DNA from: an uncultured Candidatus Saccharibacteria bacterium
GTDB lineage: Bacteria > Patescibacteriota > Doudnabacteria > UBA920
Assembly (NCBI GenBank): GCA_964453405.1
Contig: CAYVOF010000002.1
Span: 10,825-74,824, forward strand
Direction of reading: 5' to 3'
Length of the DNA stretch: 64,000 nt
The position numbers were made by a program, and so were the translations under genes. Below, piece after piece: positions 1 to 52,529 of the stretch. Positions within the stretch are counted from its first letter, which is position 1. Every line of letters begins with the position of its first letter. Under the pieces are notes generated by a model, which did not search any database, was not told the DNA's origin, and saw only the letters and a program-made list of their open reading frames with translations.

Positions 1-411
1 ACTAGCCACAAAGAATTATTCTTACAAGCTGACCACTCGCTATATAGAATAAATACTGTACCGGAATTATTTAGCAGTCAAGTTGAATCAGTAAATTTTA
101 ACGCCAATCGCCAAGAACTAACTTTTACCACACCAACCGAAATTTATTTTTATAACTTTTCCTCGGGTCAGACCGAATTATTTCACCGCAGTTCCCAAGC
201 CTTAACCCAAGCTTTTGTAGTTCCAGAACTTGGTTATGGTTTTGTGACCACTGACAAAGAAGTCTCTGCCATCGAAATAGATAATCGCAACGGTCAAAAT
301 CAATACACGCTGTATAATATGACCCCCGCTAGTATGATGCAATTATCCGATGACGAAAATCAGCTAGTTATTCTAGCAGATCAAAAATTATATTCTATTA
401 TTGTAAACTAG
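1..411 (+). CDS. Partial CDS (C-terminal 136 codons), hypothetical protein; 5' end lies outside the window
   Basis: Open frame with no stop from position 1 to the TAG at 409-411. Missing from the ORF track only because it has no in-window start codon. Confidence 0.4.
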   Translation, partial: TSHKELFLQADHSLYRINTVPELFSSQVESVNFNANRQELTFTTPTEIYFYNFSSGQTELFHRSSQALTQAFVVPELGYGFVTTDKEVSAIEIDNRNGQNQYTLYNMTPASMMQLSDDENQLVILADQKLYSIIVN

Positions 412-415
412 CGGT

Positions 416-826
416 TTATAAACTAAGGGCTTTATCGATGGCCTGATTAACCATACGATCAGCTTCTTTATTAAACTCACGTAAAATATGCTTAAAGCTA
501 TAGTTATCAAATTCCGCTAATAATCTTTTTACCTTAGCCGCCAACTCCTGTAAATGGGGTTGTTTTATTTTATACTCCCCTAACATTTGCTTAACAATCA
601 ATTCGGAGTCCATAGAAATCTCTAAATCAGTTCCGCCTAAAGTTTTGGAAGATTTAAGAGCTTCGATAAGCGCGGTATATTCGGCTACGTTATTTGTCGT
701 TTCGCCCAAATACTGACCGTGCTCTAAAATAATCGCCCCGTTTTCATCTTTAATTACCCATCCTGCACCCGCAGGTCCTGGGTTACCCCGCGCACCACCA
801 TCTGTACTAAGCAGTAATTTCTTCAT
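416..826 (-). CDS. rnhA: Ribonuclease HI
   Basis: N-terminal TDGGARGNPGPAGAG motif and an RNase H-like catalytic core; 136 aa. Confidence 0.8.
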   Translation of the reverse strand: MKKLLLSTDGGARGNPGPAGAGWVIKDENGAIILEHGQYLGETTNNVAEYTALIEALKSSKTLGGTDLEISMDSELIVKQMLGEYKIKQPHLQELAAKVKRLLAEFDNYSFKHILREFNKEADRMVNQAIDKALSL

Positions 827-29376: not shown

Positions 29377-31935
29377 CTAAACTGTCTTCTCTACTGCGCC
29401 TGGTCCAGCAGCCATCATATCAGCAACTTGGCTAGCTTCTAGGATTTCTGACTCAACTTCACTGCGTGGACGGCCAAATTTTAACCGCGACAGTTGACGA
29501 ATAGCCTCGGCAGTTTTCTTTTGCTCTTCATTAGCTTTTGGTAGCGGATAAGTTGCCATATTAAACGGTTTACTAGCCGTTCCCTTAATCATCAATTTTA
29601 CAAACGCGTTAAAGCGATCAACGTTTAATAAATCGAACTCGTTAAATGTTGGGGCAAATTCTTTAGCCATAACTTCACTGTCTTCTACACCGATACGGAA
29701 CGTGACCATACTACCAGCATTTCCAAACACCGCATCGCGAAGATCGTTACTTGCCGCACCTTGTGCACCCGCAGCTTGACCAAGCTGCGCCAAGAACTGG
29801 TGACCAATAATTAAGTTTAATCGATACTTACGGGCTTCACTTAAAATAGATGAGAAAGCATCAGTAATAAAGTTCTGGAACTCATCTACATATAGATAAA
29901 AATCTTGACGTTGATCTTCGGGAATATCAGCGCGCGACAACGCTGCCATCTGAATCTTACTAACCAAAATCAAACCAATCAGTTTGGCGTTCATTTCCCC
30001 TACTTTTCCTTTGGCCAAGTTCACTAAGAGGATTTTTTTATTATCCATGATGTCTCTAAAATTGAAGGCGCTCTTTGGCTGACCAACAATATTACGCATC
30101 ATGGAGTTTTCTACGAAGCGACCAACTTTGGAAACCAAATAACCCAACATTTCGGACTTATGAAAGTCGCTAGTTTTAGCCATTTCTTTTTCCCAAAAAG
30201 CACGAACCACTGGATCATTTAATTTAGAAACTTTGTACTTTTGGAATTCGGTGTCAGTAAAAATGCGCGGTACCTCGACAATTGTGCCTGGGTTTTGTTC
30301 ATCCGCCATCAACGTAAGCATGGCGTTGCGCATATTATGTTCGAACATTGGTCCAAGCATGGCAGGGTCGGTAACCAATTTATAAAAGATCGAGATCATT
30401 TCTTGTACAGCAAAATCTTTTTGACCTTCACTAGTCACTTCGAGCATGTTCAAACCCATTGGCCGGTCTGTATCGAATGGATCAAACAAAATTACATCTT
30501 CGGCACGCTCTTTTGGAATATGAGGTAAAACGTCTTCAATAAAATCACCGTGTGGGTCAATAATACAAATTCCGTCACCATTCTTAATATCCTGCACAGA
30601 CATGTACTTCATGATTTCGGTTTTACCCACACCAGTACGCCCTAGAATATACATATGACGACGACGATCATCGCGCGACATATGAATCTTAGTTTCTTGG
30701 CCACGATAAATATTACGACCTAATAAGATTCCTTCTTCTGGCAAATTAATTGGAGGTGGAGCTTTTTTAGATAGCAACCATTTGATGTTTGGTGTTTCTA
30801 AAAATGGTGTTGGGAGATGCCAAATGCTAGTTAATTCTTCGGTGTTTAAAATGGCTTTACGGCCATAACGACGATAGATGCGAAAAATATAATCTTTAAT
30901 AATACGTTTTTTGGCACGGCGCTTTACGCGAAAACCATTAAACGGCGCCATGTTGTACTGCAAAAATGAAGCTACTAAGTTATGCATATTAACTTTGGCT
31001 TCTCCAGGAGTTGGAGACGCAGTAATTAACCGAATGTTAGTAAAAAATCCTGGACGACTGGCTTTTTCTTCAAAGCGCTTTACCATTTCTTGCTGCATTG
31101 GGGTTAAGTTAATCGCCGAATATCGTCCCGATAAATCAGTGCGTTGCTGCATTTGATCTTTACTTAACTCACCACTTCCTAATGCACTGGTTTTTGCAGT
31201 ACTGGCAACTTCACGCGCAAAACGACCAAACGCACTCTTGGCAACAATGTTTGGATTTTTCCCTTGCTGAATTTCCAACGCCATATGACGTGGTCGGTGC
31301 TGCCAATGCTCGCCTGCGGGATATAAAATCATTTGAATCACGGCGCCGTCTTCATCGCCAAGTTTTGACATTGCATTAGTAAGGGAGTTAAGTGGATCAG
31401 TTTCCATGCTCTTATAAGTTCGGAAAGGATACATATAAGGTTTCGTAAGACGAAGCTCAGTTGCCTCAATCTGACCTTTGGCCGGAAAAGGATTATAGCC
31501 TTTAATCTCTTCGATAAAGGCATGAGGATACTGCGCCTGAACCTGCTTTTCAATTAACTCTTGTAGCTTGCGCGGGCAATTAATATAAAACGAAATCTTT
31601 TTATCAATACAGGCAATTTCGAAACTAATATATTCTTTAGGTTGAAAAAACCAGTTGTCATGACTTATACCCGAGAGCGTAGTAAATAACTGTTCCGCAA
31701 TACCAATTAGTAGTTTTTTCTCTTCATCTCGTTGATACTTTTCTTTATCTTCGCTATTATCTTTTGGCATTTGAATTTCTAAGAACACCCAATCTTTAGT
31801 GCGCGGCAAAATTACGCGGCCATAATACCAATGCCGGTGCAAATAATAAACCAGGAAAACCAAAAACACTATTACTAAAATTCCTAGCAATAGTGATGCA
31901 ATAATAATTGTATTAAGTTCTAATCCGAACGGCAT
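29377..31935 (-). CDS. Membrane-anchored FtsK/HerA-superfamily ATPase of type IV secretion type (VirB4/VirD4/TraD-like) with an atypical ~400-aa N-terminal domain
   Basis: N-terminal TM; Walker A GRTGVGKT (aa 432-439) followed by IIDPHGD; Walker B LYVDEFQNF (aa 680-688); 852 aa. Confidence 0.6.
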   Translation of the reverse strand: MPFGLELNTIIIASLLLGILVIVFLVFLVYYLHRHWYYGRVILPRTKDWVFLEIQMPKDNSEDKEKYQRDEEKKLLIGIAEQLFTTLSGISHDNWFFQPKEYISFEIACIDKKISFYINCPRKLQELIEKQVQAQYPHAFIEEIKGYNPFPAKGQIEATELRLTKPYMYPFRTYKSMETDPLNSLTNAMSKLGDEDGAVIQMILYPAGEHWQHRPRHMALEIQQGKNPNIVAKSAFGRFAREVASTAKTSALGSGELSKDQMQQRTDLSGRYSAINLTPMQQEMVKRFEEKASRPGFFTNIRLITASPTPGEAKVNMHNLVASFLQYNMAPFNGFRVKRRAKKRIIKDYIFRIYRRYGRKAILNTEELTSIWHLPTPFLETPNIKWLLSKKAPPPINLPEEGILLGRNIYRGQETKIHMSRDDRRRHMYILGRTGVGKTEIMKYMSVQDIKNGDGICIIDPHGDFIEDVLPHIPKERAEDVILFDPFDTDRPMGLNMLEVTSEGQKDFAVQEMISIFYKLVTDPAMLGPMFEHNMRNAMLTLMADEQNPGTIVEVPRIFTDTEFQKYKVSKLNDPVVRAFWEKEMAKTSDFHKSEMLGYLVSKVGRFVENSMMRNIVGQPKSAFNFRDIMDNKKILLVNLAKGKVGEMNAKLIGLILVSKIQMAALSRADIPEDQRQDFYLYVDEFQNFITDAFSSILSEARKYRLNLIIGHQFLAQLGQAAGAQGAASNDLRDAVFGNAGSMVTFRIGVEDSEVMAKEFAPTFNEFDLLNVDRFNAFVKLMIKGTASKPFNMATYPLPKANEEQKKTAEAIRQLSRLKFGRPRSEVESEILEASQVADMMAAGPGAVEKTV

Positions 31936-35079: not shown

Positions 35080-35098
35080 ATATTTAATGGTTGAGAAT

Positions 35099-35173
35099 AA
35101 ATTTATTTGCTAAGAGAACAGTTTGCGAGCGCACGAGCGAAGCGAGGAGCGCTGTTCTCGTGCAAATAAATTT
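35099..35173. repeat. GC-rich palindromic intergenic element, copy B, occupying the usual L30 (rpmD) slot
   Basis: About 23-bp arms (aaatttatttgctaagagaacag / ctgttctcgtgcaaataaattt) around the core tttgcgagcgcacgagcgaagcgaggagcg; it overlaps the rpsE stop codon. Confidence 0.6.
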
Positions 35174-46226: not shown

Positions 46227-46312
46227 TTTAAACTTAGACCCATTTTATCTAATCAAGTATTCTTCGTCAAAGAAAAAAGCGCTACCTCGATAGCACTTTT
46301 TTTAAAATAATT

Positions 46313-46672
46313 TTATAAACTACACTCTTGGTATAAAGTTCGAGTGTCCGGATTCGTCATAGTTTGACCTGTGACCTTTGCGTTATAAACGGAACATGTA
46401 TCTGTTGCAGGGATCCAGAACGTAGTTACTATGACATCTGAAGACACTGCTGATGCAGAACCAGAAGTAGTTGGCTTAATTGACCAGCTTCCACCAGTTT
46501 GAGATTTAATTGCCCAACTCCTACCAATATTAAAGTTTGCTGATGAAGGTGTGCCTTGAATATCTGCAAACGGACCGACATGGTAATAACGTGATGTCCA
46601 AAAAAAACCGACCAATGCACCAATGACTAGCATCAGTACTATTAGCATCATATTTTGTTGATTTTTTATCAT
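46313..46672 (-). CDS. Small signal-anchored, Cys-containing protein, paralog 2 (119 aa)
   Basis: Shares N-terminal TM plus the R.Y..GP.A..QGTPSSAN module with the adjacent gene; its own terminator lies downstream. Confidence 0.55.
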   Translation of the reverse strand: MIKNQQNMMLIVLMLVIGALVGFFWTSRYYHVGPFADIQGTPSSANFNIGRSWAIKSQTGGSWSIKPTTSGSASAVSSDVIVTTFWIPATDTCSVYNAKVTGQTMTNPDTRTLYQECSL

Positions 46673-46744
46673 TATAATTTAACAGTTAATTAATACCTTA
46701 AGTATGAGGCTTTTAAAAAAATCTGCCAAACGAGTTATCCCCAA

Positions 46745-46790
46745 ACAAAAAACTCCCCCCATATAAGAAGGGAGTTTTTTTATATTTTTA
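46745..46790 (-). terminator. Rho-independent terminator after paralog 1
   Basis: aaactccc ... gggagttttttt hairpin with T-runs on both strands. Confidence 0.6.
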
Positions 46791-47087
46791 ATTACCAGTT
46801 CCACCTGGGGTACTTGACCAATTCTCAGTCCAGTAATCACGACCATTGACCCGGCGGTGACATCTCATGTCTTCGCCCAGAGTCCCTGCGGCGCCACTAC
46901 TATCAAAATAACATAGATCTCCTGGTCGATGACCAGCCGACCCTTGTAAATTAGCAGAAGACGGTGTCCCCTGCAAACCAGCTAATGGTCCTGCTCCATA
47001 ATTACGAGCAGTAAAAGCCCAACCAATGAAGATGCCGATTGCGATCATTCCAACACCAATCAGGAGATCTTTTTGTTTCTTTTCCAT
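46788..47087 (-). CDS. Small signal-anchored, Cys-containing protein, paralog 1 (99 aa)
   Basis: N-terminal 47 aa paralogous to the 46313-46672 gene; two cysteines in a divergent C-terminal part. Confidence 0.55.
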   Translation of the reverse strand: MEKKQKDLLIGVGMIAIGIFIGWAFTARNYGAGPLAGLQGTPSSANLQGSAGHRPGDLCYFDSSGAAGTLGEDMRCHRRVNGRDYWTENWSSTPGGTGN

Positions 47088-47159
47088 TTTATTTTAAACA
47101 ATTAATTATTACTTTAAGTATGAGTTTATTTATAAAATAGTGCAAACAAGTTATCCACA

Positions 47160-47196
47160 AACAAAAACTCCCCCACCTCGGAGGAGTTTTTAAATT
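47160..47196 (-). terminator. Rho-independent terminator downstream of tuf
   Basis: aaaaactcctccgaggtgggggagttttt hairpin followed by a T-run on the minus strand. Confidence 0.6.
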
Positions 47197-48384
47197 TTAC
47201 TTAGTAATCTTTACAACAACACCAGCACCAACGGTTCGGCCACCTTCACGGATCGCGAACTTACCTTTTTCTTCCAAAGCAATTGGAGTAATAAGCTTAA
47301 TGTTGATGTTTACAGTATCACCAGGCATAACCATTTCTTGGCCTTCTGGCAAGATAACTTCACCGGTTACGTCAGTTGTACGTACGTAGAACTGTGGCTT
47401 ATAACCCTTGAAGAAAGGAGTGTGGCGTCCGCCTTCTTCTTTGTTCAAGATATAAACTTCAGCTTCGAACTCAGTGTGAGGAGTAATAGAACCAGTCTTA
47501 GCCAAAACTTGGCCGCGTTCTACTTCTTCCTTCTTAACACCGCGAAGTAATAGACCAGCGTTGTCACCAGCCATACCCTTGTCCAACTGCTTGTTGAACA
47601 TTTCGATACCAGTTACAACAGTCTTAGAAGTTGGTTTGATACCAACGATTTCGACTTCTTCGTTGATGTTGATCATACCGCGTTCGATACGACCAGTAAC
47701 TACAGTACCACGACCTTCGATTGTGAAGATGTCTTCGATAGGCATCAAGAAAGGTTGGTCAGTAGCACGAGATGGATCAGGGATGAAAGTATCCAAAGCT
47801 TCTACAAGCTTTAAGATAGATGGTTCACCCATATCAGATGTGTCGCCTTCCAAAGCTTTTAATGCACTACCACGGATGATAGGTGTGTCTTTGCCTGGGA
47901 ATTCGTACTTGTTAAGCAAGTCGCGGATTTCTTCTTCTACTAAATCCAAAAGTTCTGGATCAGAAACCATGTCGCACTTGTTCATGTAAACTACGATGTG
48001 AGGTACACCTACCTGACGAGCGAGCAAGATGTGTTCGCGAGTCTGAGGCATAGGACCATCAGTAGCAGATACTACAAGAATAGCACCGTCCATTTGAGCA
48101 GCACCGGTAATCATGTTCTTGATGTAGTCGGCGTGACCAGGACAGTCTACGTGAGCGTAGTGACGAGTTGCAGATTCATATTCTGCGTGAGAGGTATTAA
48201 TTGTAATACCACGAGCTTTTTCTTCTGGAGCGTTGTCGATGCTAGCGTAATCGCGAGCTTTAGCGCCACCAGTTTTAGCTAACACAGTTGTGATAGCTGC
48301 AGTCAAAGTGGTCTTACCATGGTCTACGTGACCGATAGTACCAACGTTGACGTGAGTCTTAGAACGATCAAATTGCTCTGCCAT
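47197..48384 (-). CDS. tuf: Elongation factor Tu
   Basis: [14 protein letters not shown] and NKCD G-motifs; 395 aa. Confidence 0.97.
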
Positions 48385-48647
48385 TTGATACCTTTCTGTT
48401 CTATAAATTCGGTTCTAGCCCCGAGATACCCTCTCTACTTCCCCTTATCATCCTGATCGGGACTGGCTAGCTAAAGCGGGCTAAAGCTGGCGATTCGGGA
48501 AAGAAGGGAGGGTTTCTCTTTTTTTCGCAAGGAATCCAGGTGACGAGAAAAGAGATTTATAGTTTTTTAATGATTTTAAAATTGGCGACGGAGACGCGCG
48601 CCAATCACAATGTATTGTAAGTGGTTTTGGGTGAGTTTGTCAAGGGT

Positions 48648-48676
48648 TTGACAGCAATAGAAAAGTTGCTTACAAT
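48648..48676 (+). promoter_or_regulatory. Sigma70-type promoter TTGACA-17-TACAAT for the lipoprotein gene
   Basis: Consensus hexamers; an adjacent TTGTCA ... TTGACA inverted repeat overlaps the -35. Confidence 0.5.
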
Positions 48677-48699
48677 ATTGAGTCAATACAGGAGGACAT

Positions 48700-49149
48700 A
48701 TGAATATAACATTTAGACCAGTTTACAAAATTATTGTGCTGATGATCTTGATGCTTTTTGTCGGTTCGGCCACTGGTTGCAAATCGGATGCCAAAATTGC
48801 TGAAGCTAAGGTGGAAAAGGAAATAGAAAGGGAACAAAAGTTAACCCAGCTTAAAACGTACTCAGACGAAACTTGGACAGTAAAGCAAATTAATTTGCAA
48901 AACGATTCTTCTATAACAAATGATAATACATACGCTGTGATTATCGAAAACCCGAAGGGCGAGCGTAGGTATCTCAAGGCTGTAGAATCAAACCGTAGAG
49001 ACTATGGCAAATTACAAAGTTGGATGCTGGCCCACGATGACCAATTAAAATTTGCCATTAATGAATCAGTTTCTGTATTTAATTCTGAAGGTGACTTGCC
49101 CTATCTAATACTCGTGGAGAGAAATGGTAAAGTTATGACTCCTCATTAA
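48700..49149 (+). CDS. Putative lipoprotein (149 aa)
   Basis: Signal peptide with lipobox ATGC; SD AGGAGG. Confidence 0.55.
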   Translation: MNITFRPVYKIIVLMILMLFVGSATGCKSDAKIAEAKVEKEIEREQKLTQLKTYSDETWTVKQINLQNDSSITNDNTYAVIIENPKGERRYLKAVESNRRDYGKLQSWMLAHDDQLKFAINESVSVFNSEGDLPYLILVERNGKVMTPH

Positions 49150-49166
49150 CGAGGAGTTTTTTATTG
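49137..49166 (+). terminator. Rho-independent terminator
   Basis: actcctc attaac gaggagt followed by T6. Confidence 0.6.
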
Positions 49167-49239
49167 ACTAACTTCTTTAAAATCTATACAATTCAAAACC
49201 TAAGATAAACTCTTAGATAAAAATATAAGGAGGTGTAAT

Positions 49240-49479
49240 ATGAATTACCCAATATTCAAACAGCGATGGGTTAAAACCTTGCCTGATGGCAAAGTTGCAG
49301 AAGTGTACTCTATACACCTCACCCCAGAATCAGCAATTGAATTTATCGAACAGCAAAGACTCCAGCCAACATACCCAGAATATATAGCTACTGGTCATCC
49401 CGTGCCAGATATGGTCAACGAAGAAATTTTTAATTACTTAACTACGGCCAAAAATTGGTGGACAGAAGAAGAACATTAA
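49240..49479 (+). CDS. Hypothetical small protein (79 aa)
   Basis: SD AAGGAGG 7 nt upstream; bidirectional terminator hairpin at 49496-49525. Confidence 0.5.
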   Translation: MNYPIFKQRWVKTLPDGKVAEVYSIHLTPESAIEFIEQQRLQPTYPEYIATGHPVPDMVNEEIFNYLTTAKNWWTEEEH

Positions 49480-49525
49480 GTAAATCAGAATTAACAAAAC
49501 GCACCCGTTTGGATGCGTTTTTATT

Positions 49526-50010
49526 TTATATGTCGTCAAAGTTGGGTTTGATTTCTTCGTCCGCTTCTGTTTCGACTAAAGGTTGAGCTAATGGCATACC
49601 AAAACTTGGATCCATTACTTCTTCTCGCAAGTCATATTGAGGTGGCTCTTGTCGGCCGTAGGGTTGGTTGATAAACAAATCTTTGGCGCGTTTAGAAAGA
49701 ATATTTTTTATCGGCGTCGGCATGATTACCGAATGAGGTGCTGTGTTAGGTACATCATCTGCAATAGTTTCTAGATTAATGTTTGTAGTGTCCACGATAT
49801 CGGTGAGCTGGGCTTCTAATATTTCACGGTTAATTTTTTCTGGGTCTGGACCAGTAGGAGTTGAACTTGCTACGCCAGTCAAAACCGTACCACCAGCCAT
49901 GCGCTGATATTCAGCAAAGGACAAAAATACACCCTTCACTTTCCCATCTTCGCCAACAATCATTACTTTTCCATCTTGCCCTGCAAATTGTATTAAATCT
50001 TTAAGGTTCA
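49526..50010 (-). CDS. Hypothetical protein with a Phd/YefM-antitoxin-like N-terminal ~50 aa and an acidic Pro-rich tail
   Basis: An N-terminal pattern (KVMIVGEDGKVKGVFLSFAEYQRM) resembles Phd/YefM. The ATG at 50010 lies 7 nt after a TTGCCA-17-TATAGT promoter, so the mRNA is likely leaderless; the track TTG start is at 50047. Confidence 0.4.
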
Positions 50011-50137
50011 TATTTAATACTATAGTCGGCTCAGTCAATATTGGCAAATAAATATGGGTTAAGCTTGGGATACTTACAAATCGCTTTACAAATCCAAATA
50101 GATTATCTACAAAGTAAAGTCTAAATAAGGAGGAAAA

Positions 50138-50347
50138 ATGGCAAAATATTTTGTTAGTGGTTTAATCACAACTGTTCGTTCTCAAGTTGGTGATGACAAT
50201 AAAAAACATTTTGATCGATTTATAGATTACCCGCTTATCGTTTCGGAAGCTGATTATGCTGACTTTAGAAACGAGCTTGCGGAAAAACTAAACGCACACC
50301 CAACAGATCTTGAAGTCACTAATCTGAATGTTCTTTTCAAAACCTGA
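50138..50347 (+). CDS. Hypothetical small protein (69 aa)
   Basis: SD AAGGAGG; followed by a bidirectional terminator at 50357-50392 shared with fusA. Confidence 0.5.
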   Translation: MAKYFVSGLITTVRSQVGDDNKKHFDRFIDYPLIVSEADYADFRNELAEKLNAHPTDLEVTNLNVLFKT

Positions 50348-50399
50348 CATTACAAAAACCGTCCCCATGTTAGAGACGGTTTTTTTATTTCTATTAAAT

Positions 50400-52529
50400 T
50401 TACTGCATACCCTTACGAACGTTCATGCCCGCACGGGATTCAATAATATTTGCGGCAACATTCTTTGGAACTTCTTCATAGTGATCAAATTCCATGATGC
50501 TGGATGCCTGACCTTGAGTCATAGAACGCAACTGTGTTGCATAACCAAACATTTCGGCTAGCGGTACAAATGCAGTTACAACCTTGCGACCAGTAATATC
50601 TTCCATATCCTGAATCTTAGCGCGCTTAGAGTTTAAGTCACCGATTACATCACCCATGTTAAGTTCTGGCGTAGTAACAACAACTTTCATGACTGGTTCT
50701 AAGATAATAGGATCACCTTTCTTAACAGCTTCTTGTAAACATTTTGAAGCAGCAATTTTGAAGGCCATTTCGGAAGAGTCAACTTCGTGATAGCTACCGT
50801 CGTAAACAGCAGCACTAAAGTCTACTAATGGATAACCGGCAATAACACCGTTTGCGGCAGATTCCTGAATACCTTTATCAATTGGCTTGATGTATTCTTT
50901 TGGAATTACACCACCAACAATTTCGTCTTTAAATTCATAACCCTTACCTGCTTCGAGCGGTTCGACACGCAAGTAAACGTGACCATATTGACCGCGTCCA
51001 CCAGACTGACGAATATACTTAACTTCGGCAGTAGCCATTTTCTTAAAGCTTTCTTTGTAAGCAACTTCTGGTTTACCGACGTTAGCCTCGACTTTGAATT
51101 CGCGCTTCATACGGTCTACCAAAATTTCTAAGTGCAATTCACCCATACCAGCAATAATTGTTTGCTGAGTTTCGTCGTTAGTAGAAACTTTAAAGGTTGG
51201 ATCTTCTTCTGCAAGTTTTTGCATCGCAATACCCATTTTTTCTTGATCAGCTTTGGTCTTAGGTTCGATCGCCATGCTGATAACTGGTTCTGCGAATTTA
51301 ATCTTTTCTAATTCGATTGGAGAAGATTCAGCACAAAGAGTATCAGCAGTGATAGTGTCTTTTGGACCTACCAACGCGCAGATGTCTCCAGCAAATACTT
51401 CTTTAACTTCGTCACGTTGATCAGCGCGCATACGTACGATACGACCAACGCGTTCTTTGTTACCGCTACGAGCGTTAAGTACGTAAGAACCGGCTTCCAA
51501 TTTACCAGAGTAAACCCGGAAGAAAGCTAAACGTCCAACGAAAGGATCAGTTGCAATTTTAAATGCCAAAGCAGTAAATGGTTCGTCATCAGTTGGATGA
51601 CGAAGTAGTTCTTCACCAGTTTTTGGGTTATGACCTTTAACTGGTTCTTTGTCGGTTGGAGATGGCAAGAAGTTAGCAACACCGTCTAATAATGTACGCA
51701 CAATGATCCCGCGACCGTCACCACCGAATACTGGGAAGAATTCACCAGAGCGAGTAGCTTTGCGAATCGCTAGCAATAATTCTTCTTCGGTAAGTTCTTT
51801 ACCTTCTAAATATTTTTCCATTAACTGATCGTCGAATTCAACAACTTTTTCAATCAATTCGTGGCGGTACTTTTCACACTTTTCTTTTAAGTCCGCTGGT
51901 ACTTCACCGATGGTAAATTCTTTGTCAGTAAAATCTTTGTAGGTATAGGACTTCATTTGAACAAGGTCAACAACACCAACAATGTCTTTTTCAAATCCAA
52001 TTGGAATTTGAACAGGAAAAGCATTCTTAGTTAAACGGTTGTGAATTGATTCAAGCGATTTAAAGAAGTCACCACCGGTTTGGTTGATTTTGTTAATGAA
52101 GCACATGCGTGGTACGCCGTACTTGTCGGCTTGGCGCCACACAGTTTCGGACTGAGGTTCTACACCCATTTTTCCGTCGAACACGGTAACTGCGCCGTCG
52201 AGTACGCGCAAAGAGCGCTCTACTTCTACGGTAAAGTCTACGTGACCTGGAGTGTCGATAATGTTAATTTTGTATTCTGGAAGTTCGTCCGCTAACTTAA
52301 CGTACTGAGGCTTCCAATAACAAGTTACAGCCGCGGATGTAATTGTAATACCGCGTTCGCGTTCTTGTTCCATCCAGTCGGTCACAGTTTCACCTTCGTG
52401 AACCGCACCGATCTTGTGGATCATACCGGTGTTGTACAAGATACCTTCGGTAGTTGTAGTTTTACCAGCGTCGATGTGAGCGATAATCCCGATATTACGG
52501 GTCGCTTCTATTTGATAATCTCTGGGCAT
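50400..52529 (-). CDS. fusA: Elongation factor G
   Basis: AHIDAGKTT and DTPGHVDF G-motifs; 709 aa. Confidence 0.97.

What the first reader, a model, noticed from the sequence alone, without database searches (positions are those of the whole stretch)
46313..47196. Tandemly duplicated small signal-anchored proteins with a conserved N-terminal module and divergent Cys-containing C-termini
The two genes (119 and 99 aa) share an N-terminal 47 aa (TM plus R.Y..GP.A..QGTPSSAN) and about 85% identical upstream promoter/terminator DNA. Their C-terminal halves differ completely, and each has two cysteines. A conserved leader with a variable mature region is the pattern seen in diversifying secreted peptides such as bacteriocin-like peptides, pilin-like proteins and host-interaction factors.
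Basis: seen in the sequence. Interest (0 to 1): 0.55.

Follow-up and report, generated by a model that had tools for sequence, protein, structure and literature searches.

The report
Small exported proteins with swappable tails
Two neighbouring small genes just after the EF-Tu gene belong to an undescribed, rare family in uncultivated bacteria, in which a constant promoter and membrane-targeting head is joined to interchangeable two-cysteine tails; what these proteins do is still unknown.

Summary
Genes A (46313..46672, -) and B (46788..47087, -) share a 47-residue N-terminal module with 47% identity. Their upstream DNA is 76-81% identical, against 51% in shuffles. Their C-terminal halves are unrelated, and each has two cysteines.

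Both genes are real. Synonymous sites between them are saturated, yet the protein motif and the promoter are conserved.

An exhaustive HMMER search found about a dozen relatives. With two more found later, the family has 15 members. No member matches Pfam, NCBIfam or PDB.

All 15 members have:
- a hydrophobic helix with invariant G18 and G22;
- the linker [ST][RK]xYGxGP[LI]AxLxGxxS-x-A;
- a hydrophilic C-terminal tail with an even number of cysteines.

Two close relatives share a 181-nt block (promoter, 5' UTR and 35 codons) at 99.4% identity, followed by unrelated tails. The gene is also present or absent at otherwise identical sites.

Six promoters carry a motif matching the DnaA-box consensus, TGTGGATAA(C), 4-5 nt upstream of the -35 element.

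Best reading: these are exported proteins, anchored or released, with disulfide-stapled tails that vary by exchange, probably in a CPR-like lineage. They fail the tests for class IIa bacteriocins, type IV pilins and lipoproteins.

The parts
46788..47087 (-). Gene B, 99 aa, a family member with a so far unique C-terminal tail (Cys59, Cys76)
   Evidence: ORF. Scores 90.7 bits against the family N-terminal HMM. Present as a called protein, P0002, in the public collection.
46313..46672 (-). Gene A, 119 aa, a family member with a beta-rich C-terminal domain (Cys93, Cys117) shared with P0006 and P0007
   Evidence: ORF. Scores 88.4 bits against the HMM. Ortholog P0006 and relative P0007. Purifying selection. 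In the AF2 model residues 84-118 are beta strands with pLDDT 74-82.
46947..47087 (-). Constant N-terminal module of B (codons 1-47): Lys-rich n-region, hydrophobic helix with G11/G18/G22, then TARNYGAGPLAGLQGTPSSAN
   Evidence: AF2 predicts a helix over residues 3-30 with pLDDT 82-94.
46532..46672 (-). Constant N-terminal module of A (codons 1-47)
   Evidence: AF2 predicts a helix over residues 3-30 with pLDDT 86-96.
47088..47164 (-). Conserved promoter and 5' UTR block of B. It holds the DnaA-box-like TGTGGATAA at 47151..47159, a -35-like TTGCAC at 47140..47145, and a -10 CATACT at 47117..47122
   Evidence: Alignments. Motif search. Hexamer positions are assigned by homology with gene A's scanned promoter.
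46673..46748 (-). Conserved promoter and 5' UTR block of A. It holds the DnaA-box-like TGGGGATAA at 46735..46743, a -35 TTGGCA at 46724..46729, and a -10 CATACT at 46701..46706
   Evidence: Promoter scan..
47170..47186 (-). Intrinsic terminator of tuf. It is the 5' edge of the duplicated unit
   Evidence: It aligns with the terminator that precedes gene A.
46755..46774 (-). Intrinsic terminator of gene B. It makes B a monocistronic unit
46273..46296 (-). Probable terminator of gene A: GUGCUA-UCGAGG-UAGCGC followed by U6
   Evidence: Read directly from the sequence. The scanner did not list it. The next gene has its own promoter, TTGACG-17-TAAAAT, at 46270..46242.

Best explanation
A and B are two old paralogs of an undescribed family of small exported proteins, found in a narrow lineage of uncultivated bacteria that is probably CPR/Patescibacteria-like. 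Each gene is its own transcription unit.

Proposed order of events:
1. The gene is transcribed from a conserved sigma-70-type promoter. An operator matching the DnaA-box consensus, TGTGGATAA(C), sits 4-5 nt upstream of the -35 element. The 5' UTR is AT-rich and lacks a Shine-Dalgarno sequence.
2. The Lys-rich N-terminus and the roughly 20-residue hydrophobic helix send the protein to the Sec machinery, N-terminus in and C-terminus out.
3. The helix stays in the membrane as an anchor. It carries a conserved face of small residues (small-x6-G18-x3-G22), which suggests packing against itself or a partner.
4. The conserved linker [ST][RK]xYGxGP[LI]AxLxGxxS-x-A acts as a constant stalk.
5. The stalk presents a small, hydrophilic C-terminal head, closed by a disulfide, on the cell surface.

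The head is the variable part. It changes by recombination within the constant 5' block, and by gain and loss of whole gene cassettes. Related strains therefore display different heads, plausibly for contact with hosts, partners or phages.

Shown here: the family and its architecture; purifying selection on the module and on A's head; a promoter conserved above the neutral level; head replacement between close relatives; presence/absence of the gene at one site.

Inferred: export, topology, disulfide formation, retention of the anchor, who binds the operator, and the biological role.
For: Family and architecture.
- 15 members share the module (78-91 bits against the N-terminal HMM; 52-56 bits for a degenerate copy). 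G18, G22, G33-P34 and A45 are invariant; Y30, L38 and S43 are nearly so.
- A small residue (G/A/S) sits at the position 7 before G18 in 12 of 13 members.
- AF2 predicts a confident helix over residues 3-30 in both A and B.

Extracytoplasmic heads.
- Every member has an even number of cysteines in the tail: two in 13 members, four in one, six in one.
- No cysteines occur in the module, except one inside the helix of P0006.
- The tails are hydrophilic, with GRAVY -0.06 to -1.02.

The genes are real and constrained.
- A versus B, module: pS 0.80, pN 0.32.
- A versus P0006, tail: pS 0.80, pN 0.28.

Promoter constraint.
- A versus B is 81% identical, and A versus its ortholog's promoter is 77%, while synonymous sites are saturated.
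- TG[GT]G[GT]ATAA occurs once per locus, and only upstream of the family gene, across 55 kb of related loci.
- It lies 63-72 nt before the ATG in six independent promoters.
- Only two perfect copies occur in the 64-kb window.

Modular exchange.
- L012 and L013 share 181 nt at 99.4%, then have unrelated tails; the downstream flank is 92% identical.
- P0008 and P0012 occupy the same RNase H-PEGA slot with unalignable tails, and the window lacks the cassette at that slot.
- A second tandem pair occurs in L007/L008.
- Close relatives carry different members at different sites. Window S10 is 100% identical to that of L009, and EF-G is 92% identical to that of L011.
Against: - No signal-peptide or topology predictor could be run.
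- Flanking charges do not settle the orientation: the N-flank is 0 to +2, the C-flank -1 to +3, and a conserved Arg/Lys follows the helix.
- 11 of 15 members have a canonical small-x-small site just before [ST][RK]xY. S43-x-A45 also fits the -3/-1 rule. Cleavage and release are therefore just as compatible with the sequence (reading).
- The AF2 models of the tails have low to moderate confidence, and no fold match was found.
- No expression or proteomic data are available.
- The family is tiny in public data: about a dozen clusters at 50% identity among 1.84 billion. Generalisations therefore rest on few sequences.
- The DnaA-box match is a 9-10-mer. A different regulator could bind it.
- Four loci lack the box (L004, L010, and both L007 genes).
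Confidence: 0.5

Rival explanations
1. The N-terminal helix is a cleavable Sec signal peptide. Alternatively, the whole 45-residue module is a pre-pro leader. The mature proteins, 50-95 aa and stapled by a disulfide, are released as diffusible factors such as signals, inhibitors or bacteriocin-like proteins.
For: - 11 of 15 members have A/V/G-x-A/G/S directly before [ST][RK]xY, for example AVA|S, ALA|T, ATA|R and VMA|S.
- The invariant A45 and near-invariant S43, with a variable residue 44 and a frequent Pro at -4, fit the signal-peptidase -3/-1 rule.
- The hydrophobic core of 17-20 residues is borderline between a signal peptide and an anchor.
- A constant promoter and leader with variable mature parts is the layout of class II bacteriocin-like gene families (own knowledge).
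- The motif [AT][ST]R.YG.GP resembles the N-terminus ATRSYGNGV of Sec-dependent enterocin P (recalled from memory, a lead only).
Against: - Gene A has no acceptable proximal site (FFWTS|R has Trp at -3).
- B, P0007 and P0008 have Phe at -3.
- The S-x-A site lies about 20 residues beyond the hydrophobic core, which is unusually far for signal peptidase I.
- Invariant G18 and G22 and a conserved small-residue face are unusual for a disposable h-region.
- The tails are hydrophilic and mostly acidic or neutral (net -8 to +1), unlike cationic amphiphilic bacteriocins.
- No immunity-like, transporter or modification gene is a conserved neighbour.
- No member matches Pfam Bacteriocin_II, even at E<=10.
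Confidence: 0.3
2. The proteins are subunits of a non-canonical surface filament and work like pilins. The constant hydrophobic helix polymerises, and the variable disulfide-bonded head is exposed. The tandem copies would be major and minor subunits.
For: - A conserved N-terminal hydrophobic helix with Gly/Pro breaks, plus a variable C-terminal head with a Cys pair near the C-terminus, mirrors type IV pilin design. The second Cys is 2 residues from the end in A and P0006, and 7-10 residues from the end in several others.
- Tandem paralogs occur twice.
- The constant region acts as a recombination substrate.
Against: - There is no class III signal: no Gly at -1 before the helix and no Glu at +5.
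- No prepilin peptidase, assembly ATPase or platform gene was seen next to any member.
- The loci are scattered single genes.
- The filaments so far described in CPR bacteria are Sec-dependent Ig-fold donor-strand pilins, which are unrelated in size and fold (bioRxiv 10.64898/2026.03.03.709456).
Confidence: 0.07
3. The topology is inverted, with the N-terminus out and the C-terminus in. The tails would then be cytoplasmic, and the cysteines would serve in metal or redox chemistry rather than in disulfides.
For: - A positive residue (R/K28) immediately after the helix is conserved in all members.
- The N-flank charge is only 0 to +2.
Against: - A strict even cysteine count, mostly exactly two, fits disulfides. 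A zinc site would usually need four ligands.
- There are no His/Cys clusters.
- Rapid replacement of the tails is typical of exposed parts, not cytoplasmic ones.
Confidence: 0.05
4. The ORFs are chance or decaying reading frames in an intergenic spacer downstream of tuf. The similarity would reflect only a duplicated terminator and promoter.
For: The proteins are short, match no database family, and the window genes have no close (90% identity) cluster mates.
Against: - The amino-acid motif is conserved while synonymous sites are saturated.
- There are 15 members across at least 9 genomic contexts.
- An ortholog of A is under purifying selection over its whole length.
Confidence: 0.01

Closest known systems
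Mycoplasma variable surface lipoprotein families (M. bovis Vsp, M. agalactiae Vpma)
   Same: These are multigene families whose members share a conserved 5' UTR and signal peptide, followed by divergent mature surface-exposed parts. New variants arise by recombination in shared 5' sequence (PMC5634654). Here the promoter, 5' UTR and first 35-47 codons are constant and the rest is exchanged.
   Different: - There is no lipobox or lipoprotein cleavage motif, since the module has no cysteine.
- There are no internal repeats.
- No Xer-type recombinase or inversion sites were seen.
- Each copy has its own promoter and terminator, rather than one promoter serving a cluster.
- Copies are scattered singly or in pairs.
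- There is no sequence homology.
Class II bacteriocin-like peptide gene families (double-glycine or Sec leaders; pediocin-like class IIa)
   Same: They have a constant regulated promoter and a constant leader, with variable Cys-pair-containing mature parts, often in tandem (own knowledge). The motif YGxGP recalls the YGNGV box (lead from memory).
   Different: - The leader is a hydrophobic helix, not a double-glycine leader.
- There is no CxxxxC after the YGxG motif.
- The tails are 48-105 aa (one of 232 aa), hydrophilic and mostly acidic.
- There are no conserved immunity or ABC-transporter neighbours.
- No member matches Pfam Bacteriocin_II.
Type IV pilins
   Same: They have a conserved N-terminal hydrophobic helix and a variable C-terminal head with a disulfide near the C-terminus. 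The constant region serves as a substrate for recombination (own knowledge).
   Different: There is no prepilin-peptidase site (Gly-1, Glu+5). No assembly genes lie nearby. The conserved linker YGxGP...SSA has no pilin counterpart.
Polymorphic toxin systems (C-terminal displacement)
   Same: C-terminal domains are replaced by recombination while the N-terminal trafficking part stays constant (PMC3482391 abstract).
   Different: The proteins are 10-50 times smaller. There are no recognisable toxin domains, no immunity genes, and no silent cassettes in the window.
DnaA box (TTATCCACA) as a transcriptional operator
   Same: The promoters of B, P0006, P0010 and P0015 carry the exact reverse complement, TGTGGATAA. 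Those of A and P0016/P0018 carry one-mismatch versions. The motif sits at a fixed 4-5 nt from the -35 element. DnaA is known to act as a transcription factor in E. coli and B. subtilis (own knowledge).
   Different: There is a single box rather than a cluster. It is not at an origin, as the GC skew is monotonic across the window. Binding was not tested. Four family loci lack the box.

Membership tests
Class IIa (pediocin-like) bacteriocins | A YGNGV box followed at once by a CxxxxC disulfide in a cationic mature peptide of 37-48 aa | tested here: not met
   YGxGP is present, but LAGLQG...SSAN follows it. The first Cys comes 16 or more residues later. The tails have net charge -8 to +1. No Pfam Bacteriocin_II hit at E<=10 for 13 members.
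Double-glycine leader peptides (class II bacteriocins, competence pheromones) | A non-hydrophobic leader of 15-25 aa ending in GG, with a peptidase-C39 ABC transporter nearby | tested here: not met
   The N-terminus is a hydrophobic helix of about 20 residues. No ABC transporter or C39 peptidase appears among the neighbours.
Type IV pilins / pseudopilins | A class III signal: a short basic leader, Gly at -1, a hydrophobic helix with Glu at +5, and a prepilin peptidase | tested here: not met
   No member has G|[FM]TLIE or a Glu in the helix.
Bacterial lipoproteins (including Vsp/Vpma-type variable lipoproteins) | A lipobox [LVI][ASTVI][GAS]C at the end of the signal peptide | tested here: not met
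   There is no Cys in residues 1-45 of 14 of 15 members. P0006 has C13 in the context VAFC, which is not a lipobox.
Sec signal peptide cleaved by signal peptidase I | n-, h- and c-regions with small residues at -3 and -1, located 3-7 residues after the h-region | tested here: inconclusive
   By rule, 11 of 15 members have a proximal small-x-small site. A, B, P0007 and P0008 have Trp or Phe at -3. A second invariant S-x-A lies about 20 residues downstream. No predictor was available.
Extracytoplasmic disulfide-bonded proteins | An even number of cysteines in the exported part, and an oxidising compartment | tested here: met
   The tail cysteine count is even in 15 of 15 members (2, 4 or 6). Formation of the bond itself cannot be tested here.
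Polymorphic toxins | A large N-terminal trafficking or filament region, a C-terminal toxin domain, and an adjacent immunity gene | tested here: not met
   The proteins are 91-151 aa (one is 281 aa). They have no Pfam domains and no conserved downstream partner.
DnaA-regulated promoter | A 9-mer matching TTATCCACA that is bound by DnaA and alters transcription | tested here: inconclusive
   The sequence criterion is met in six promoters at a fixed position. Binding and effect cannot be tested with these tools.
Known RNA elements (riboswitch or sRNA) in the conserved upstream block | A match to an Rfam covariance model | tested here: not met
   Nothing reached the gathering score. The only hit at E<=1 is RsaJ at 16 bits against a gathering score of 100.

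The most novel reading that the evidence does not exclude
The constant block (operator, promoter, AT-rich leader and 45-residue targeting/stalk module) would be a portable 'express-and-display' cassette specific to a CPR-like lineage. Recombination would plug different disulfide-stapled heads into it. The cell's own DnaA, or another cell-cycle-linked regulator, would read its operator. Surface display of host- or phage-facing heads would then be coupled to replication status in an episymbiont. A variant of this reading is that the GxxxG helices assemble into a new kind of surface filament.
Probability: 0.1. Interest if true: 0.7.

Novelty: new variant of a known kind. Interest (0 to 1): 0.45.

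Why it matters
Uncultivated, probably symbiotic bacteria with tiny genomes have very few characterised surface or secreted factors. This family offers:
- a sequence signature that can be searched for;
- a defined constant and variable architecture;
- direct evidence of head swapping between close relatives;
- a family-specific promoter element that can be tested.

If the heads mediate contact with hosts or phages, the family would be a marker of strain-level specificity in this lineage. It would also be a compact natural scaffold for displaying small disulfide-stapled domains. If the DnaA-box-like operator is real, it would link the expression of surface proteins to the replication machinery.

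Tried and rejected
Searches that found nothing useful.
- K-mer-prefiltered protein searches with A, with B, and with a 13-sequence module profile returned only self-hits and one extra member, P0018.
- Both scans of GTDB species genomes found nothing, not even the source genome. The first used poorly chosen N-terminal patterns; the second used GP.A..QGTPSSAN.
- Both JGI metagenome scans found nothing.
- IMG/VR and the phage records gave no relatives, so a phage origin is not supported.
- Pfam, NCBIfam and PDB sequence profiles gave nothing beyond transmembrane-helix noise.
- Rfam found nothing.
- The Foldseek PDB search with the gene A model had no match below E=3. The afdb50 library was unavailable.
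- The AF2 model of B's tail is low confidence.
- A literature search for the sample and assembly accessions returned nothing.

Ideas considered and dropped.
- P0014 (1351 aa, a repetitive eukaryote-like protein) was set aside as a spurious low-score hit.
- The Pam pili of CPR bacteria are Ig-fold donor-strand pilins and are unrelated.
- The missing Shine-Dalgarno sequence is not a special feature. 51 of 69 window genes lack one.
- There are no silent cassettes for the tails in the window.
- The other near-matches to the DnaA-box motif in the window are not in comparable promoter positions.

Full report
**What is in the window**

Two ORFs lie on the minus strand immediately downstream of tuf (47197..48384). 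Gene B is at 46788..47087 (99 aa) and gene A at 46313..46672 (119 aa).

The surrounding gene order, read along the minus strand, is:
- rpsL, rpsG and fusA;
- four small ORFs with no database family;
- tuf, then B, then A;
- a 156-aa ORF;
- a methyltransferase-like gene on the opposite strand;
- rpsJ and the S10/spc operon.

Each of B and A is bracketed by an intrinsic terminator upstream and a terminator downstream, and has a sigma-70-like promoter. They are therefore separate monocistronic units. The duplicated unit is terminator, promoter, then gene.

**Check of the observation**

BLASTP aligns only residues 1-47: 22 identical, E=9e-15. The tails do not align. Each tail has two cysteines.

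The two intergenic regions are 76% identical overall and 81% identical from the conserved box to the ATG. Shuffles give 51 +/- 2%.

The important detail is at the codon level. Of the 20 non-Met codons that encode the same residue in both modules, 16 use different codons (pS 0.80, saturated; pN 0.32). The duplication is therefore old and the amino-acid motif is maintained by selection. The non-coding promoter and 5' UTR are conserved far above the neutral level.

**The family**

Word-indexed searches found only the genes themselves. An exhaustive HMMER search of 1.84 billion cluster representatives found 14 proteins at E<=0.001. Those 14 include the self-matches for A and B. One long repetitive protein (P0014) was set aside as spurious, which leaves 11 new relatives.

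A profile search added P0018. Six-frame scanning of fetched loci added an unannotated tandem partner of P0011. The total is 15 members.

All 15 members share three features.
- A Lys-containing n-region.
- A hydrophobic helix of about 20 residues. G18 and G22 are invariant, and a small residue sits seven positions before G18 in 12 of 13 aligned members.
- The linker [ST][RK]xYGxGP[LI]AxLxGxxS-x-A. G33-P34 and A45 are invariant; Y30, L38 and S43 are nearly so.

AF2 models the helix over residues 3-30 with high confidence in both A and B.

No member matches Pfam, NCBIfam or any solved structure by sequence. The upstream block matches no Rfam family.

**The tails**

Gene A, P0006 (53% identical, an ortholog) and P0007 share a beta-rich domain with a conserved Cys pair. 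The AF2 pLDDT for residues 84-118 is 74-82. P0010 and P0011 share another tail type.

Several other members (P0008, P0012, P0013, P0016, P0017, P0018) read like helix-turn-helix hairpins with a Cys at each end. This is an inference from the sequences. B's tail is so far unique.

Every tail has an even cysteine count: two in 13 members, four in one, six in one. The tails are hydrophilic, with net charge -8 to +1.

A versus P0006 shows purifying selection in the tail (pN 0.28 against a saturated pS). A given tail type is therefore conserved once it is in place.

**How the variation arises**

L012 (P0016) and L013 (P0018) come from related organisms. They share a 181-nt block at 99.4% identity.
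- The block starts exactly at the promoter box and ends at codon 35.
- The remaining coding sequence is unrelated.
- The downstream flanking gene is 92% identical.
- The upstream flanks differ.

This is C-terminal replacement, or transfer of the constant block, between close relatives.

P0008 and P0012 occupy the same slot between RNase H and a PEGA-domain gene, and have unalignable tails. The window has the same RNase H end and the same shared terminator, but no cassette there.

The relatives are close. Window S10 is 100% identical to that of L009, and EF-G is 92% identical to that of L011. Even so, L009 carries a different member upstream of rpsJ, and L011 carries a 281-aa member directly after fusA.

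Four contexts lie in the translation-gene clusters:
- after tuf (the window);
- after fusA (L011);
- upstream of rpsJ (L009);
- between nusG and rplK (L001).

I have no explanation for this preference beyond high expression and strong terminators.

**The promoter element**

Six independent promoters carry TG[TG]G[TG]ATAA(C) 63-72 nt before the ATG and 4-5 nt upstream of the -35 hexamer. These are A, B, P0006, P0010, P0015, and P0016/P0018 counted as one.

In 55 kb of related loci the pattern occurs only there, once per locus. The 64-kb window has only two perfect copies, one of them at B.

The perfect form is the reverse complement of the DnaA-box consensus TTATCCACA (own knowledge). Whether DnaA or another factor binds it is unknown. 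Four loci lack the box (L004, L010 and the L007 pair).

The lack of a Shine-Dalgarno sequence is normal for this genome. 51 of 69 genes lack one.

**Organism**

This is inferred.
- Even the EF-Tu has no cluster mates at 90% identity.
- L30 is absent between S5 and L15.
- Many neighbouring genes have no database family.
- Glycolysis and pentose-phosphate genes, HtrA and a type IV secretion coupling-protein-like gene are present.

These features fit a CPR/Patescibacteria-like lineage but do not prove it.

**Interpretation**

The most economical reading is a family of Sec-targeted small proteins. A constant helix and linker carry a variable, disulfide-closed, hydrophilic head outside the cell.

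I favour retention of the helix as an anchor (confidence 0.5). The reason is that specific glycine and small residues on one helical face are invariant, while everything else, including synonymous sites, has diverged.

Cleavage and release remains a strong rival (0.3). Eleven members have a canonical small-x-small site just before [ST][RK]xY, and S43-x-A45 also fits the -3/-1 rule.

A pilin-like assembly (0.07), an inverted topology (0.05) and an artefact (0.01) are less likely.

Membership of the following was tested on defining features and is not met: class IIa or double-glycine bacteriocins, type IV pilins, lipoproteins and polymorphic toxins.

The closest functional analogy is the Mycoplasma Vsp/Vpma families, which share a conserved 5' UTR and signal peptide ahead of variable mature parts (PMC5634654). 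Here there is no lipid anchor, and no invertible promoter or internal repeats were seen.

**Verdict**

This is a real, previously undescribed but small family: a new variant of a known kind. Its function is still unknown. Interest is moderate.

Noticed in passing
window 300-480 (-), compared with L004:1250-1740 and L010:5870-6400: The 3' end of RNase H and the shared bidirectional terminator are homologous in all three. The roughly 360-bp family-gene cassette present in L004 (P0008) and L010 (P0012) is cleanly absent in the window genome.
   Followed up: yes
window 50103-50111 (-), upstream of the 173-aa ORF at 49526-50047: A one-mismatch copy of the box (TGTAGATAA) sits in the fusA-downstream spacer. 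In L011 the homolog of this 173-aa ORF (41% identical) is preceded by family member P0015 directly after fusA. This may be a remnant of a lost family promoter.
   Followed up: partly
P0009, P0010, P0011 and P0013 (L005, L006, L007, L009): Four members with otherwise different tails end in the same extreme C-terminal motif, (E/G/P)P(L/M)L(E/D). It could be a sorting or processing tag. Neither window gene has it. B and P0007 instead both end in GG(N)T(T)GN.
   Followed up: no
L013:1042-2316: An AAA_14/DUF4143 ATPase gene is inserted between P0018 and the flanking gene that L013 shares with L012. The insertion is bounded by a direct repeat of about 49 nt at 88% identity.
   Followed up: partly
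window 35080-35171: Only 92 nt separate rpsE (S5) from rplO (L15), so there is no L30 gene. This fits, but does not prove, a CPR/Patescibacteria origin.
   Followed up: partly
whole window: Shine-Dalgarno use is bimodal. 18 of 69 crude gene models have a GGAG-like motif, and many of those are ORFs with no database family or lie on the plus strand. The others, including all the ribosomal protein genes of the S10/spc operon, have AT-rich leaders without one; only rpsL, rpsG and tuf among the translation genes show a weak AAGG/AGGA match.
   Followed up: partly
window 29377-31935 (-): An 852-aa protein has TrwB/TraG-type type IV secretion coupling-protein domains. It lies just downstream of the secY end of the ribosomal operon.
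   Followed up: no
window 48400-50400: Four small ORFs with no database family lie between fusA and tuf: 69 aa, 173 aa, 79 aa, and a 149-aa protein with a lipobox-like SATGC. The 156-aa ORF after gene A has a 40%-identical counterpart just upstream of rpsJ in L009. The str-S10 spacer is therefore a fast-evolving insertion zone in this lineage.
   Followed up: partly
window 46649-46672: The public gene call for A (P0001, 111 aa) starts at Met9. The family alignment (MxKKQQN in ortholog P0006) supports Met1, giving 119 aa.
   Followed up: yes
L006:6331-7380 (-): Family member P0010 converges on a 349-aa AhpC/redoxin/thioredoxin-like protein. This could be relevant to oxidation of the Cys pair, but it is seen at this locus only.
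   Followed up: no
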